Positions 46,001 through 48,266 of a stretch of 64,000 nucleotides of DNA are shown piece by piece. A program made the position numbers and the translations under genes. This DNA comes from Ktedonosporobacter sp. (GTDB lineage: Bacteria > Chloroflexota > Ktedonobacteria > Ktedonobacterales > Ktedonobacteraceae). The stretch is from NCBI GenBank assembly GCA_035293765.1, contig DATGMF010000079.1, positions 1 through 64,000 on the forward strand, given 5' to 3'. Below the pieces are notes generated by a model that saw only the letters and a list, made by a program, of their open reading frames with translations, made no database searches and had not been told where the DNA came from. Every line of letters begins with the position of its first letter. Positions within the stretch are counted from its first letter, which is position 1.

Positions 46001-48266
46001 AAATGATTTTCGTGATGGCCAGTTGCCCATTCTCTATTGCTCGCCGACGATGGAGCTGGGCATTGATATTGCCGAACTCAATCTGGTGCATCTGCGCAAT
46101 ATCCCGCCGACGCCCGCCAATTACGCGCAACGCAGTGGGCGGGCGGGCCGCAGCGGACAGCCTGCCCTGGTGATTGCCTATTGTTCCACCGGCAGCGCGC
46201 ACGATCAGTATTTCTTCAAACGGCCCGAGCAGATGGTGGCCGGTTCGGTCTCGCCGCCGCGCCTGGATCTGGCGAACGAAGATCTGGTGCGCGCCCATAT
46301 TCACGCGATCTGGCTGCCCGAGACGGGGCAGAACCTGGGCCGGTCGCTGCCCGATCTGCTGGATATCACCGCGCCCGATCTGACCTTGCCGCTGTTCCCT
46401 TCGGTACGAGAGAGCGTCGAGGATGGAGGCGCGAAAAGACGGGCCGAGCGCCGCGCCAGGGAGGTGCTGGCAACGCTGCAAGACGAATTGGAGCAGGCCG
46501 ACTGGTACAAGGAGGACTGGCTGGCGCGCACGCTGGACGCGGTGGCGCTGAACTTTGAGCGTGCGACCGACCGCTGGCGCGAACTCTACCGAGCCGCCCG
46601 CAGGCAGATCGATATCCAGCATAAAATTCGCAACGATCCGGCGCGTAGCACGGAGGATCGCGAGCGAGCTGATCGCCTGCGCAGTGAGGCGGAGGCCCAG
46701 GAGAAGCTGCTGACCGACTCTTCGACCCTGGAACAATCAGACTTCTACAGCTATCGCTATTTCGCCAGCGAGGGCTTCCTGCCGGGCTATAACTTCCCGC
46801 GCCTGCCGCTCTCGGCCTATATTCCAGGCAGGAGATCGCGCCAGCAGGATCGCAACGAGTATCTCTCGCGCCCGCGCTTCCTGGCGATCTCGGAGTTTGG
46901 GCCGCGCGCGATTGTCTATCACGAAGGCTCGCGCTACGAGATCAACCGCGTGATCCTCTCGCTGGATAGCGGGGGCAACCTGACCACCGGTGGGGTGAAG
47001 CAGTGCTCAAACTGTGGCTATCTGCATCCCTTGAGCGACGATGGCGTGGGGCTGGATGTCTGCGAGCACTGTGGCGCGCGCCTGGATCTGCCGTTGCGCA
47101 ATCTCTTCCGTTTGCGCAACGTGGCGACCAGGAGGCGCGATAAGATCAGCTCGGACGAGGAGGAGCGTACACGCATGGGCTTCGACATCCGCACCGCAGT
47201 ACGCTTCGAGCGCCACGAGAGCGGTTCGCCTATGCGCACAGGGCAGGTTCAAATGGAGGATAGGCCCGGGGAGCGCCTGGCTTTGCTGACCTATGGACAT
47301 GCCGCGACGCTCTGGCGCATCAATCTCGGCTGGCGTCGCCGCAAGGACCAGTCCACCTATGGCTTTGTGCTGGATACCGAGCGCGGCACCTGGGAGAAGA
47401 ATGAGCAGGAGCCGGACGACACGGATGCGACGAAGATGGTGCGCACGCAGCGCGTCATCCCCTATGTGGAGGACCGGCGCAATTGCCTGCTTTTGGAGCC
47501 GGACGAGAAACTGGAGCTGCCTCAAATGGCTTCGCTCCAGGCGGCGCTGAAAAATGCTATTCAGGTGCGCTACCAGCTTGAGGATAACGAGCTGGCTGCC
47601 GAACCGCTGCCGGATGACCTCAGCCGCCGCCAGTTGCTCTTCTACGAGTCGGCGGAGGGCGGCGCGGGCGTGCTGCGGCGCTTGATCGAGGAGCCTCTGG
47701 CAATACGCGAGGTGGCGCGTGAGGCCCTGCGCCTCTGCCACTACGATCCGCTGACGGGCGATGATCTGCGGCGTGCCCCACGGGCGCGTGAGGAGTGCGA
47801 GGCGGCCTGCTATGACTGCCTGCTAACCTATGCGAATCAGCGCGATCACCAGTTGCTGGACCGGCGCGGCATTCGCGATATTCTGCTGCGCCTGGCCGGT
47901 TCCCATGTGGTCGCCAGCTCTACTGCGACGCCGCGCCCGCAGCACCTTGAACAGTTGCAGCGCCTGACCGATTCATCATTGGAGCAGCAATGGCTGGCCT
48001 ATCTGCAGGAGCGCGGGCACCGTCTCCCCACAAAGGCGCAGCAGTTGATCCCGCAGTGTCAGACGCGCCCGGACTTCTGCTATGAGGACGAATACGTTGC
48101 GATTTATATTGATGGTCCCTATCACGACTTCCCTGAGCGGCAGGCCCGTGATGCCGCCGCAAAAGAATGCCTGGAGGATCTTGGCTATCTGGTGATCCGC
48201 TTCGGGCACCAGGACGATTGGGACGCGATCATTGCCAGCTATCCAAATATTTTCGGGAGACGCTGA
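43068..48266 (+). CDS. giant DEXH-box SF2 helicase fused to DUF1998/MZB zinc-ribbon domain and C-terminal DUF559/Vsr-like PD-(D/E)xK nuclease (DrmA+DrmB / DruE-like)
   Basis: Walker A LTTGTGSGKSLSY, DELH (VLDELHTYRGRQG), SAT, motif VI QRSGRAGRSG. Cys clusters CSNCGYLHP...CEHCGARL and CEAACYDCLLTYANQ. C-terminus YVAIYIDGPYHDFPERQARDAAAKECLEDLGYLVIRFGHQD matches the DUF559 core. GTG start with RBS aaggtgga. Confidence 0.8.
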   Translation: MNTIFDFRNQLIHDYASYVQSFLQIRDQYIRKHVQGQMARGAFWPEPLIQLNPLFEPGESIDDLVKEGVLHPECARIFRKGKSEIDEQGAPLRLHQHQSEAVRVAHSGASYVLTTGTGSGKSLSYIIPIVDHVLRAGSRRGIQAIVCYPMNALANSQLIELEKFLRWGYAQGKSPVTFARYTGQERDEVRNAIIAQPPDILLTNYVMLELILTRVAEQKLLANAHLRFLVLDELHTYRGRQGADVALLVRRVRNRLAGDDLQCVGTSATLSSSESYAERQADVARMATQIFGTPIGSEHVIGETLRPVTSWGQDEETFRAQLTERVRDRDYQPPRDYEEFLRDPLSIWIERTFGITESNGRVERTTPRSISGERGAAHELSALTDVPLETCVEAIQRALLAGYECEPVPETGRPPFAFRLHQFITRGDTLYASLEPPAARYLTLNGQRYVPDGTRARVLLPLVFCRECGQEYYCVRLRDGQLLPRHLNDHDQEESQAGFLYYSQENPWPDDDEKQLVERLPDDWIEEFKSSYRVRRDRRKSLPGALRVYPDGKFGEGGHGPSVQGDGLPMHFVSAPFRFCLHCGVSYNTRQRQDFGKLAALSSEGRSTATTILSLSAIRHLRETPQDDIAAKLLSFTDNRQDASLQAGHFNDFIEIGILRAALYRAVREAGAEGLRHDGLTMKVFDALALPFEQYASDPGVKYQAFTDTQQALRNVLGYRLYCDLRRGWRITSPNLEQTGLLNIRYLSLEDVCQDEAVWQGCHETLRTASPRTREKIGKVLLDHMRRELAIEVDYLDSGYQERLWQQSNQRLAAPWGVDENEAKVHAAILFPRSANNGDYGGNVYLSARGGFGQYLRRRTTFTEFQGKLTLEDTGQIISNLLEGLQEAGLVKRVQEPPKKEKDGVAGYQLPAAALIWSFGDGTQVFHDPIRMPRTSSEGQRPNPFFVDFYREMSARLNDLRAYEHTAQVPGDLRQQRENDFRDGQLPILYCSPTMELGIDIAELNLVHLRNIPPTPANYAQRSGRAGRSGQPALVIAYCSTGSAHDQYFFKRPEQMVAGSVSPPRLDLANEDLVRAHIHAIWLPETGQNLGRSLPDLLDITAPDLTLPLFPSVRESVEDGGAKRRAERRAREVLATLQDELEQADWYKEDWLARTLDAVALNFERATDRWRELYRAARRQIDIQHKIRNDPARSTEDRERADRLRSEAEAQEKLLTDSSTLEQSDFYSYRYFASEGFLPGYNFPRLPLSAYIPGRRSRQQDRNEYLSRPRFLAISEFGPRAIVYHEGSRYEINRVILSLDSGGNLTTGGVKQCSNCGYLHPLSDDGVGLDVCEHCGARLDLPLRNLFRLRNVATRRRDKISSDEEERTRMGFDIRTAVRFERHESGSPMRTGQVQMEDRPGERLALLTYGHAATLWRINLGWRRRKDQSTYGFVLDTERGTWEKNEQEPDDTDATKMVRTQRVIPYVEDRRNCLLLEPDEKLELPQMASLQAALKNAIQVRYQLEDNELAAEPLPDDLSRRQLLFYESAEGGAGVLRRLIEEPLAIREVAREALRLCHYDPLTGDDLRRAPRAREECEAACYDCLLTYANQRDHQLLDRRGIRDILLRLAGSHVVASSTATPRPQHLEQLQRLTDSSLEQQWLAYLQERGHRLPTKAQQLIPQCQTRPDFCYEDEYVAIYIDGPYHDFPERQARDAAAKECLEDLGYLVIRFGHQDDWDAIIASYPNIFGRR

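What the first reader, a model, noticed from the sequence alone, without database searches (positions are those of the whole stretch)
46990..48266. C-terminal module of the 1732-aa helicase: DUF1998/MZB zinc ribbon followed by a DUF559/Vsr-like nuclease domain (possible substitute for DrmC)
After helicase motif VI (QRSGRAGR, ~46130) the protein carries two Cys clusters, CSNCGYLHP..CEHCGARL (47001-47090) and CEAACYDCLLTYANQ (47794-47850), as in MrfA/YprA/DrmB/DruE. Its last ~70 aa (DFCYEDEYVAIYIDGPYHDFPERQARDAAAKECLEDLGYLVIRFGHQDDWDAII) fit the DUF559 / very-short-patch-repair-like restriction-endonuclease-fold core (hhIEhDG..H...R...RD..L...Gh.VhRF). In DISARM the nuclease is a separate PLD protein. 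A covalently attached PD-(D/E)xK-type nuclease on the helicase-DUF1998 component would be an effector arrangement I do not know to be described.
Basis: partly seen in the sequence, partly recalled or inferred. Interest (0 to 1): 0.8.

Follow-up and report, generated by a model that had tools for sequence, protein, structure and literature searches.

The report
ARMADA Type I helicase-nuclease, already described
The end of this 1732-residue helicase does carry a zinc-binding DUF1998 module followed by a Vsr/DUF559-type nuclease domain, but this is the published signature of the ARMADA Type I anti-phage system, and this very protein is already listed as a member.

Summary
ORF 43068-48266 (+) encodes a YprA-family SF2 helicase. 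Its C-terminal third holds a CxxC…CxxC zinc module (C1313/1316/1332/1335), the DUF1998/MZB four-Cys cluster (C1557/1577/1581/1584) and a ~105-residue Vsr/DUF559-type PD-(D/E)xK domain (residues ~1625-1732).

The gene is translationally coupled to a SNF2 helicase and followed by a PglX-like N6-adenine methyltransferase. This three-gene order holds in 30-39 of 32-40 related loci.

The novelty claim fails. Bell et al. (bioRxiv, September 2025) defined ARMADA Type I as exactly this operon, with a "predicted active Vsr-type nuclease" fused to the helicase. Their Table S1 lists this window's protein (HLG64836.1, Ktedonosporobacter sp.).

Still open: only ARMADA Type II has been tested experimentally, and the nuclease residues have never been mutated.

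Side observation: the next gene is a decayed SF1 helicase that has lost the PLD nuclease domain carried by its intact relatives. Those relatives occasionally follow ARMADA I operons.

The parts
43068..48266 (+). armC-like gene: a 1732-aa YprA-family SF2 helicase with OB-CON-DUF1998 and a C-terminal Vsr-type nuclease (HLG64836.1)
   Evidence: ORF and translation. Pfam DEAD 96-272, Helicase_C 956-1030, MZB 1490-1585, DUF559 1669-1713. 100% identical to P0001 = HLG64836.1, which is listed as an ARMADA Type I helicase.
43413..43772 (+). Helicase Walker A GTGSGKS (43413-43433) and DELH box (43761-43772)
   Evidence: Motif positions; nearly invariant in alignment A2.
44460..44816 (+). Two conserved CxxC pairs (C465/C468 and C580/C583) between RecA1 and RecA2, corresponding to the published beta-barrel zinc-binding module
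   Evidence: consensus FCRECGQEYY and FRFCLxCGVSY. Described for the ARMADA/Druantia clade. Checked at sequence level only.
46128..46151 (+). Helicase motif VI QRSGRAGR
47004..47072 (+). CxxC…CxxC zinc module (C1313, C1316, C1332, C1335) inserted in the OB-fold region
   Evidence: three Cys invariant, one conserved in at least 90%. The paper reports one such inserted module in ARMADA Type I.
47535..47822 (+). DUF1998/MZB domain with its four-Cys cluster C1557, C1577, C1581, C1584 (47736-47819)
   Evidence: Pfam MZB E=1.4e-10. Cys conserved in 120-121 of 121 homologues. The model of residues 1215-1732 matches MrfA 6ZNP_A and DrmB 7S9V_B.
47940..48263 (+). Vsr/DUF559-type PD-(D/E)xK nuclease domain (residues ~1625-1732). 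Candidate active-site residues: E1639, D1669, D1682, H1686, D1695, R1711
48266..51235 (+). armA-like gene: a 989-aa SNF2/RapA/BrxHII-like helicase. Its start codon overlaps the armC stop (TGATG)
   Evidence: Sequence. Pfam SNF2-rel_dom and Helicase_C. PADLOC DrmD 278 bits, BrxHI/BrxHII models 200 and 149 bits. 28% identical to E. coli ArmA. Found downstream of armC in 39/40 loci.
51470..55468 (+). armB-like gene: a 1332-aa PglX/DrmMI-like N6-adenine DNA methyltransferase (SAM motif DPACGSGHF 52967-52993; NPPW 53801-53812)
   Evidence: Pfam Eco57I, N6_Mtase, MmeI_Mtase. PADLOC DrmMI 217 bits. Motifs. Found downstream in 30/32 loci.
53900..55100 (+). Low-GC (0.48-0.50), divergent segment inside armB (residues ~810-1210), a putative exchangeable target-recognition region
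   Evidence: Composition. Lower identity to the brp13 orthologue in this stretch. ArmB length and domain content vary among loci.
55565..58198 (+). Neighbouring gene, probably not part of the system: a decayed SF1 (AAA_11/AAA_12, MkoA/MkoC-like) helicase. It lacks the C-terminal PLD domain and 13 residues of the motif Ia region that intact relatives carry

Best explanation
The region encodes the C-terminal effector end of ArmC, the YprA-like helicase of an ARMADA Type I anti-phage system (armC-armA-armB: helicase-nuclease, SNF2 helicase, PglX-like adenine methyltransferase). It lies in a horizontally acquired, GC-rich block of a Ktedonosporobacter genome.

Shown here:
- The anatomy: RecA1, inserted zinc modules, RecA2, OB fold with one inserted CxxC…CxxC module, CON, four-Cys DUF1998, then a Vsr/DUF559-fold domain.
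- An intact, conserved E…D…D-G-x-x-H…D acidic/histidine set in that last domain.
- Translational coupling of armC to armA.
- Conservation of the three-gene order across many phyla.

Inferred by analogy with MrfA, DrmAB, DruE and the tested ARMADA Type II:
- ArmB methylates host DNA at its recognition motif.
- ArmC loads on single-stranded or overhang-containing regions of unmodified invading or replicating phage DNA and translocates 3'->5'. The OB-CON-DUF1998 canopy closes over the strand.
- The tethered Vsr-type domain then nicks or cleaves the DNA it is threaded along.
- This gives direct, non-abortive restriction, with the nuclease fused to the motor rather than supplied as a separate PLD protein as in DISARM.
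For: - Identity: the protein is 100% identical to HLG64836.1, listed as 'ARMADA Type I helicase' in Table S1 of Bell et al. 2025. Close relatives BCL79615.1, GHO84906.1 and GCE08141.1 are listed too.
- Domains: Pfam and PADLOC results.
- Conservation: E1639, D1669, D1682, H1686, D1695 and R1711 are kept in at least 119 of 121 close homologues. D1669, D1682 and D1695 are kept in 56-58 of 58 species-representative genomes from at least 10 phyla.
- Canopy module: matches MrfA and DrmB.
- Operon: conserved.
- Same motif set (S-x-LE, RPD, DG..H, D) in the first Vsr domain of the experimentally validated E. coli ArmC.
- ARMADA II is a direct, non-abortive defence that needs all its genes.
Against: - No ARMADA Type I system has been tested experimentally, and no one has mutated the Vsr residues even in Type II. 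The authors themselves label the Type I domain 'active?'.
- H1686 is less well conserved in the wider set (48 of 58, partly from alignment gaps).
- Druantia I/II carry inactivated Vsr domains at the same position, so the position alone does not prove catalysis.
- Substrate, polarity and the role of methylation are analogies, not data.
- BLAST identity to E. coli ArmC is only 24-36% and stops before the Vsr core. The hhalign probability against that single sequence is low (3.9%, E=0.011).
Confidence: 0.85

Rival explanations
1. The Vsr/DUF559-like domain is retained but is not the catalytic effector. It acts as a DNA-binding, lesion- or modification-sensing, or protein-docking module, and cleavage is done by something else.
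For: Inactivated Vsr domains sit at the same position in Druantia I/II DruE, and extra inactive nuclease-like domains occur in ARMADA II ArmC. The Type I domain is marked 'active?' in Table S2. In recent DruE work the C-terminal PLD domains had no clear role in the authors' own assays.
Against: The full acidic/histidine set is nearly invariant over deep divergence, which is not expected of a degenerate domain. No other nuclease is conserved in the operon.
Confidence: 0.1
2. This is a DISARM class 1 variant in which DrmA and DrmB have fused and DrmC (PLD) was replaced by a PD-(D/E)xK domain.
For: An SNF2 helicase and a DrmMI-like methylase are shared with DISARM class 1 (PADLOC DrmD 278 bits, DrmMI 217 bits). 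ARMADA is explicitly 'DISARM-related'.
Against: The helicase scores 328 bits against DruE3 but only 51 bits against DrmA. The NCBIfam DrmD model scores 331 bits against a cut-off of 610. There is no split DrmA/DrmB and no DrmC. Published phylogeny places ARMADA helicases with Druantia, not DISARM.
Confidence: 0.03
3. It is a housekeeping DNA-repair helicase (MrfA/YprA-like) joined to a very-short-patch-type mismatch endonuclease, unrelated to defence.
For: MrfA is a repair helicase with the same DUF1998 canopy, and Vsr is a repair enzyme.
Against: - The gene is fixed in an operon with an SNF2 helicase and a Type IIG/PglX-like methylase.
- GC content is 0.62 against ~0.52 in the flanks.
- Neighbours elsewhere include IS elements, CBASS, GmrSD and TIR genes.
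- It has a patchy cross-phylum distribution at about 60% identity.
- The Pfam Vsr model proper hits only 1 of 60 members, while DUF559 hits 59.
Confidence: 0.02

Closest known systems
ARMADA Type I ArmC (Bell et al., bioRxiv 10.1101/2025.09.15.676423; representative WP_108720193.1)
   Same: Everything tested agrees: a YprA-like helicase with zinc modules, one inserted zinc module in the OB region, four-Cys DUF1998, a single C-terminal Vsr-type nuclease whose best structural relatives include 3HRL, and the gene order helicase, SNF2, PglX-like methylase. This window's protein is itself in the paper's Table S1.
   Different: Nothing in the core. In this locus (and in L010, L012 and L076) a co-directional SF1 helicase(-PLD) gene follows armB, which the paper does not mention. 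Here that gene is decayed.
ARMADA Type II ArmABCD of E. coli (EDL933 z5899-z5902, NCTC 12900, ATCC 8739), experimentally validated
   Same: The same three protein types are present. ArmC has a C-terminal Vsr-type domain with the same S-x-LE / RPD / DG..H / D motifs. It is a direct, non-abortive defence.
   Different: - Gene order is armA-armB-armC-armD.
- ArmC is 2113 aa, with an extra EEP-like domain and a second Vsr-like domain.
- A fourth gene, ArmD (RelE-GajB-like), is present.
- Identity to the window proteins is only 24-36%.
DISARM class 1 (DrmA, DrmB, DrmC, DrmD, DrmMI)
   Same: An SNF2 helicase plus an N6-adenine methylase plus a YprA-type helicase with an OB-CON-DUF1998 canopy (DrmB 7S9V_B is the second-best structural match).
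   Different: In DISARM the helicase and DUF1998 are separate proteins, and the nuclease is a separate PLD protein with a four-helix bundle. Here all three are one polypeptide and the nuclease is PD-(D/E)xK.
Druantia type III DruE
   Same: A large fused YprA-like helicase-DUF1998 protein with a C-terminal nuclease. It gives the best PADLOC scores for the window helicase (DruE3, 328 bits). DruE is reported to be a 3'->5' ssDNA-loading helicase.
   Different: DruE carries PLD domains rather than Vsr. Its partner is DruH, and it has no SNF2 helicase or methylase.
Vsr / DUF559 / I-Bth0305I clade of PD-(D/E)xK nucleases (1CW0, 3HRL, 3R3P)
   Different: The solved members are small stand-alone or intron-encoded enzymes with their own sequence or mismatch specificity. 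Here the domain is the tail of a 1732-aa motor protein, and the Vsr family model proper is not matched (1 of 60).

Membership tests
ARMADA Type I | YprA-family SF2 helicase with a fused OB-CON-DUF1998 module (four-Cys zinc cluster) | tested here: met
   Pfam DEAD, Helicase_C and MZB. Cys 1557/1577/1581/1584 conserved in 120-121 of 121. The model matches MrfA and DrmB.
ARMADA Type I | Single C-terminal Vsr-type (PD-(D/E)xK) nuclease domain with the catalytic residues present | tested here: met
   Catalysis itself cannot be tested here.
ARMADA Type I | BrxHII/RapA-like SNF2 helicase and PglX-like methyltransferase in the same operon, with the YprA homologue first | tested here: met
   The same order is seen in L001-L007. 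ArmA is downstream in 39/40 and ArmB in 30/32 genome loci.
ARMADA Type I | Placement of the helicase in the Type I clade of the YprA tree | tested here: met
   No tree was built here. The protein's accession HLG64836.1 is listed as 'ARMADA Type I helicase' in the authors' Table S1.
ARMADA Type I | Inserted BrxA-like, beta-barrel zinc and MarR-like domains between RecA1 and RecA2, and one zinc module in the OB region | tested here: inconclusive
   Conserved CxxC pairs lie at the expected places (465/468, 580/583, 1313/1316/1332/1335). The N-terminal half was not modelled, so the BrxA-like and MarR-like folds were not checked.
ARMADA Type I | Anti-phage activity | not testable with these tools
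   Only Type II has been tested in the literature.
ARMADA Type II | Order armA-armB-armC followed by ArmD (RelE-GajB-like helicase), with ArmC carrying extra EEP/Vsr domains | tested here: not met
   The order here is armC-armA-armB. The next gene is an Upf1-like SF1 helicase with only 29% identity over 90 residues to ArmD. ArmC ends right after one Vsr domain.
DISARM class 1 | Separate DrmA helicase and DrmB (DUF1998) proteins plus the PLD nuclease DrmC | tested here: not met
   It is one fused ORF. DrmA models score at most 51 bits against 328 for DruE3. No PLD domain was found in the neighbouring ORFs that were scanned.
DISARM class 1 | DrmD equivalog (NCBIfam NF038317, cut-off 610 bits) | tested here: not met
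   331 bits.
Vsr very-short-patch repair endonuclease (PF03852) | Match to the Vsr family model; stand-alone T:G mismatch endonuclease | tested here: not met
DUF559 (PF04480) | Score above the Pfam gathering threshold | tested here: met
   22.7 bits on the whole protein and 27.2 bits on the isolated domain, against a cut-off of 20.6.
Dpd (7-deazaguanine DNA modification/restriction) | DpdA/B/C and preQ0 synthesis genes alongside the DpdE/F/J helicases | tested here: not met
   PADLOC model PDLC02853 ('DpdE') matches ArmA over its full length at 888 bits. NCBIfam DpdE scores 191 bits against a cut-off of 500. No Dpd or queuosine-type genes appear among the flanking ORFs scanned.

The most novel reading that the evidence does not exclude
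A minority of ARMADA Type I operons may be four-gene systems. Their last gene would be a co-directional SF1 (Upf1/MkoC-like) helicase fused to a PLD nuclease and a zinc finger, positionally analogous to ArmD of Type II and reminiscent of DrmC.

Such a gene follows armB within 40-160 nt in three lineages: the window together with L010, then L012, then L076. The helicase-PLD proteins of these lineages have diverged to about 50% identity. In L076 the gene is bracketed by a duplicated armB 3' end, which suggests it is exchanged together with the variable part of the methylase. In the window the gene has lost its PLD domain and part of motif Ia, so the extra component would be decaying here.
Probability: 0.15. 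Interest if true: 0.45.

Novelty: already known. Interest (0 to 1): 0.12.

Why it matters
It matters mainly as a correct annotation. The locus is a typical ARMADA Type I defence island in a Chloroflexota genome, not a new effector arrangement.

The useful residue is a precise, testable prediction for a family whose Type I branch and nuclease domain are untested. E1639, D1669, D1682, H1686 and D1695 should be essential for defence and for DNA cleavage.

It also flags two things for annotators. One PADLOC 'DpdE' model matches ARMADA ArmA over its full length (888 bits), so ARMADA loci could be mis-called as Dpd. And Pfam thresholds miss the DUF559 domain in about two-thirds of family members in precomputed annotations.

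Tried and rejected
1. A word-indexed homologue search with the isolated nuclease domain returned only 29 short metagenomic fragments of the same helicase. It gave no information on other architectures.
2. The search for related loci with the nuclease-domain alignment A1 failed because no stretch was conserved enough. It was replaced by the single 518-aa query.
3. BLASTP of the window ArmC against E. coli ArmC and DruE aligns only the helicase and canopy parts. It cannot separate Type II from Druantia affinity (117-122 vs 105-107 bits). hhalign of A1 against the E. coli ArmC tail gave matching motifs but only 3.9% probability. Type I assignment therefore rests on gene order, domain content and the authors' table, not on my own tree.
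4. I considered whether the downstream SF1 helicase is an ArmD analogue and a core fourth component. I rejected it as core. It is absent from L001-L003, L006 and L007, and from every one of the 61 species-representative ARMADA I loci, of which about 30 extend past armB. It is also absent from 78 of 79 metagenome loci of helicase-PLD relatives. Its GC content differs from the operon, and here it is truncated.
5. I looked for a remnant of the lost PLD domain, or a duplicated armB 3' end, downstream of 58168 in the window. None was found.
6. Pfam gave nothing significant for the ~110-aa extension that follows the nuclease domain in some homologues.
7. The antisense ORF 47007-47741 and other overlapping ORFs in the GC-rich block were treated as spurious.
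Full report
**The object.** The finding lies in ORF 43068-48266 (+), 1732 aa. Pfam finds DEAD (96-272), Helicase_C (956-1030), MZB/DUF1998 (1490-1585, E=1.4e-10) and DUF559 (1669-1713; 22.7 bits, cut-off 20.6).
- Motif VI QRSGRAGR at 46128-46151.
- CSNCG…CEHCG, with Cys 1313/1316/1332/1335 at 47004-47072.
- C1557 plus CEAACYDC, with Cys 1577/1581/1584 at 47736-47819.
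- The tail TRPDF…IYIDGPYH…ERQARD…VIRFG, running to the stop at 48264-48266.

**Is it more than chance?** The protein has thousands of homologues. The best 120 are 59-100% identical over the full length and come from Chloroflexota, Planctomycetota, Cyanobacteria, Actinomycetota, Acidobacteriota and Deltaproteobacteria. JGI already annotates many of them as "YprA (DUF1998 family)/very-short-patch-repair endonuclease".
- In 121 full-length homologues, both the DUF1998 Cys cluster and the nuclease-type residues E1639, D1669, D1682, H1686, D1695 and R1711 are kept in at least 119.
- The first Cys cluster is invariant or nearly so.
- In a broader set of 58 species-representative genomes (44-82% identity), D1669, D1682 and D1695 are kept in 56-58, E1639 in 55 and H1686 in 48.
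- DUF559 is matched by 59 of 60 isolated domains, MTES_1575 REase by 40, and the Vsr model proper by only 1.

**Structure.**
- An AlphaFold2 model of residues 1595-1732, built on a 60-sequence alignment, has mean pLDDT 88.9 and an alpha-alpha-beta-beta-alpha-beta core.
- Those three top hits are exactly the solved members of the "VSR, DUF559, DUF2726" clade of PD-(D/E)xK enzymes (PMC3424549).
- A profile search of PDB sequences also finds 3HRL. It aligns D1669, D1682-G, H1686, D1695 and R1711-F with that protein's D-F, D-G, H, D and R-F.
- The domain is about 105 residues (~1625-1732), not 70. It starts with the helix carrying invariant E1639.
- A second model, of residues 1215-1732, has pLDDT about 90 from residue ~1300 onward. 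Its first 74 residues are disordered in isolation. Its only significant PDB matches are MrfA (6ZNP_A, E=1.5e-6) and DrmB (7S9V_B, E=6e-4).

**Context.**
- The stop codon of the helicase overlaps the start of the next gene (TGATG).
- That gene (48266-51235, 989 aa) is an SNF2 helicase. It scores 278 bits against PADLOC DrmD, 200 and 149 bits against the two BrxHI/BrxHII models, and 331 bits against NCBIfam DrmD, below the 610-bit cut-off.
- The third gene (51470-55468, 1332 aa) is a PglX/DrmMI/Type IIG-like N6-adenine methyltransferase with DPACGSGHF and NPPW motifs.
- The helicase itself scores 328 bits against PADLOC DruE3 and only 51 bits against DrmA.
- The three genes sit in a block of GC 0.60-0.66 within a genome of about 0.52, preceded by an AT-rich stretch (GC 0.38).
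- The same helicase, SNF2, methylase order is found in all of L001, L002, L003, L006 and L007. In species-representative genomes, ArmA lies downstream in 39 of 40 loci and ArmB in 30 of 32 loci with enough sequence.
- No PLD gene belongs to the operon.

[quoted passage not shown] - It describes one zinc-binding module inserted in the OB region of Type I, and CxxC-rich modules between the RecA domains. These correspond to Cys 1313-1335 and Cys 465-583 here.
- The window protein is HLG64836.1. [quoted passage not shown]

**Relation to the validated system.** I fetched the ARMADA II locus of E. coli EDL933 (L009: ArmA WP_001041505.1, ArmB WP_001229642.1, ArmC WP_000937974.1, ArmD WP_000218177.1).
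- The window proteins are 24-36% identical to them over the conserved cores.
- The first Vsr domain of E. coli ArmC shows the same S-x-LE, RPD, DG…H and D motifs.
- ARMADA II protects against many phages without abortive infection and needs all four genes and the ATPase and methylase motifs. Neither Bell et al. nor the mBio 2026 EHEC study mutated the nuclease residues, and no Type I system was tested.
- Recent DruE preprints report 3'->5' helicase activity on ssDNA-containing substrates. DrmAB recognises 5'-overhang DNA. These are the basis for the inferred mechanism.

**Mechanism.** The sequence and models show a motor with a DNA-enclosing canopy, an intact Vsr-type active site tethered to its C-terminus, translational coupling to an SNF2 helicase, and a partner adenine methylase. 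The following steps are inferred:
- The methylase marks self DNA.
- The helicase loads on unmodified phage DNA or its replication intermediates.
- The tethered nuclease cuts the tracked DNA.

The main rival is that the domain is non-catalytic, as in Druantia I/II. The near-invariance of the acidic/histidine set argues against this, but it is not excluded.

**Side observations.**
1. The gene after armB (55565-58198) is an SF1 AAA_11/AAA_12 helicase.
   - Its relatives are about 1150 aa and carry a C-terminal PLDc_2 domain and a zinc finger (MkoA/MkoC-like in PADLOC).
   - The window copy stops where the PLD would begin. It also lacks 13 residues containing invariant motif-Ia positions, and no PLD remnant lies downstream.
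   - An intact copy follows armB in a close relative (L010, 84% nt identity to window 51667-58168). Intact copies also follow armB in two diverged loci, L012 and L076, where the helicase-PLD is about 50% identical to the window's.
   - It is absent from all 61 species-representative ARMADA I loci, of which about 30 extend past armB, and from 78 of 79 metagenome loci of helicase-PLD relatives.
   - In L076 a copy of the last ~59 codons of armB is repeated after the helicase-PLD gene.
   - I read this as an occasional neighbour or a minor four-gene variant, not a core component.
2. A low-GC (0.48-0.50) segment at 53.9-55.1 kb inside armB coincides with the least conserved part of the protein (residues ~810-1210) when compared with the brp13 orthologue. 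ArmB lengths and domains also vary among loci (1140-1341 aa; TaqI_C in L007). This suggests exchange of a target-recognition cassette.

**Verdict.** This is an already-known, catalogued ARMADA Type I locus, and interest is low.

Noticed in passing
window 55565-58198 (+): The gene after armB is a decayed SF1 helicase (877 aa). Intact relatives (e.g. P0302, 81% identical, 1146 aa) carry a C-terminal PLDc_2 nuclease domain plus a zinc finger and resemble Mokosh MkoA/MkoC. The window copy ends where the PLD would begin, lacks 13 residues with invariant motif-Ia positions, and has no PLD remnant downstream.
   Followed up: yes
L010:3903-7343, L012:10001-13522, L076:4806-8297: Intact helicase-PLD genes sit directly after armB in three diverged ARMADA I operons. 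None is found in the 61 species-representative ARMADA I loci, and only 1 of 79 metagenome helicase-PLD loci has ARMADA upstream. This may be a rare four-gene variant or simply defence-island neighbourhood.
   Followed up: partly
L076:8308-8484 versus L076:~4470-4649: The last ~59 codons of armB are duplicated immediately after the helicase-PLD gene. The gene is therefore bracketed by two armB 3' ends, which looks like a recombination scar from cassette exchange.
   Followed up: partly
window 53900-55100 (inside armB): GC drops from ~0.63 to ~0.49 within the methyltransferase gene. The same stretch (residues ~810-1210) is the least conserved against the brp13 orthologue, while both flanks are ~80% identical. 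ArmB length and domains vary among loci (1140-1341 aa; TaqI_C in L007). This is probably an exchangeable target-recognition region.
   Followed up: partly
window 43100-53900 versus flanks; 42500-43100: The armC-armA-armB (5' part) block has GC 0.60-0.66 against ~0.52 in the surrounding genome and is preceded by an AT-rich (GC 0.38) intergenic stretch, consistent with horizontal acquisition. Orthologous operons elsewhere are flanked by IS66, ISL3 and DDE_5 transposases (L006, L007).
   Followed up: partly
window 48264-48268: The armC stop and the armA start overlap (TGATG). In most related loci the tblastn match to ArmA begins within 3-24 nt of the end of the ArmC match. In about 14 of 39 loci, 0.1-3.8 kb of extra sequence separates them.
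   Followed up: partly
window 48266-51235 (ArmA): PADLOC model PDLC02853, labelled DpdE, matches ArmA over its full length at 888 bits, far above any DrmD or BrxH model. No Dpd or 7-deazaguanine genes were seen among the flanking ORFs scanned. That model probably contains ARMADA sequences and could mislabel ARMADA loci as Dpd.
   Followed up: no
homologues P0057, P0060-62, P0071, P0076, P0078, P0115, P0116, P0118 (about 1835-1849 aa): About 10 of 121 homologues, including a cyanobacterial one (P0062, Pseudanabaenaceae), carry a conserved ~110-residue extension after the Vsr domain (…LDLDLFD..W…GGDV…). It has no significant Pfam match and is not mentioned for Type I in the paper.
   Followed up: partly
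precomputed Pfam column: The precomputed annotation lists DUF559 (PF04480) for only about a third of the family, and not for the window protein. Direct scanning of the isolated domain finds it in 59 of 60. The domain sits just at the Pfam threshold, so it is easily missed in whole-protein annotation.
   Followed up: yes
L001 (AP024096.1 2465820-2491024) and L050/L067: Ktedonobacteria bacterium brp13 has two ARMADA I operons (also two entries in Table S1). One lies next to a CBASS operon (DncV-like NTase, E1/E2, JAB, SAVED).
   Followed up: no
window 36861-37421 and 60498-61481: BTAD-domain regulators lie on both sides of the island. The upstream one is a 186-aa BTAD plus partial AAA_16 ORF, and the downstream one is a 327-aa BTAD/Trans_reg_C protein. 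A DUF6036 nucleotidyltransferase (37906-38463), a TPR protein and a DNA-alkylation-repair protein (41521-42144) are also upstream. No link to the operon is evident.
   Followed up: no
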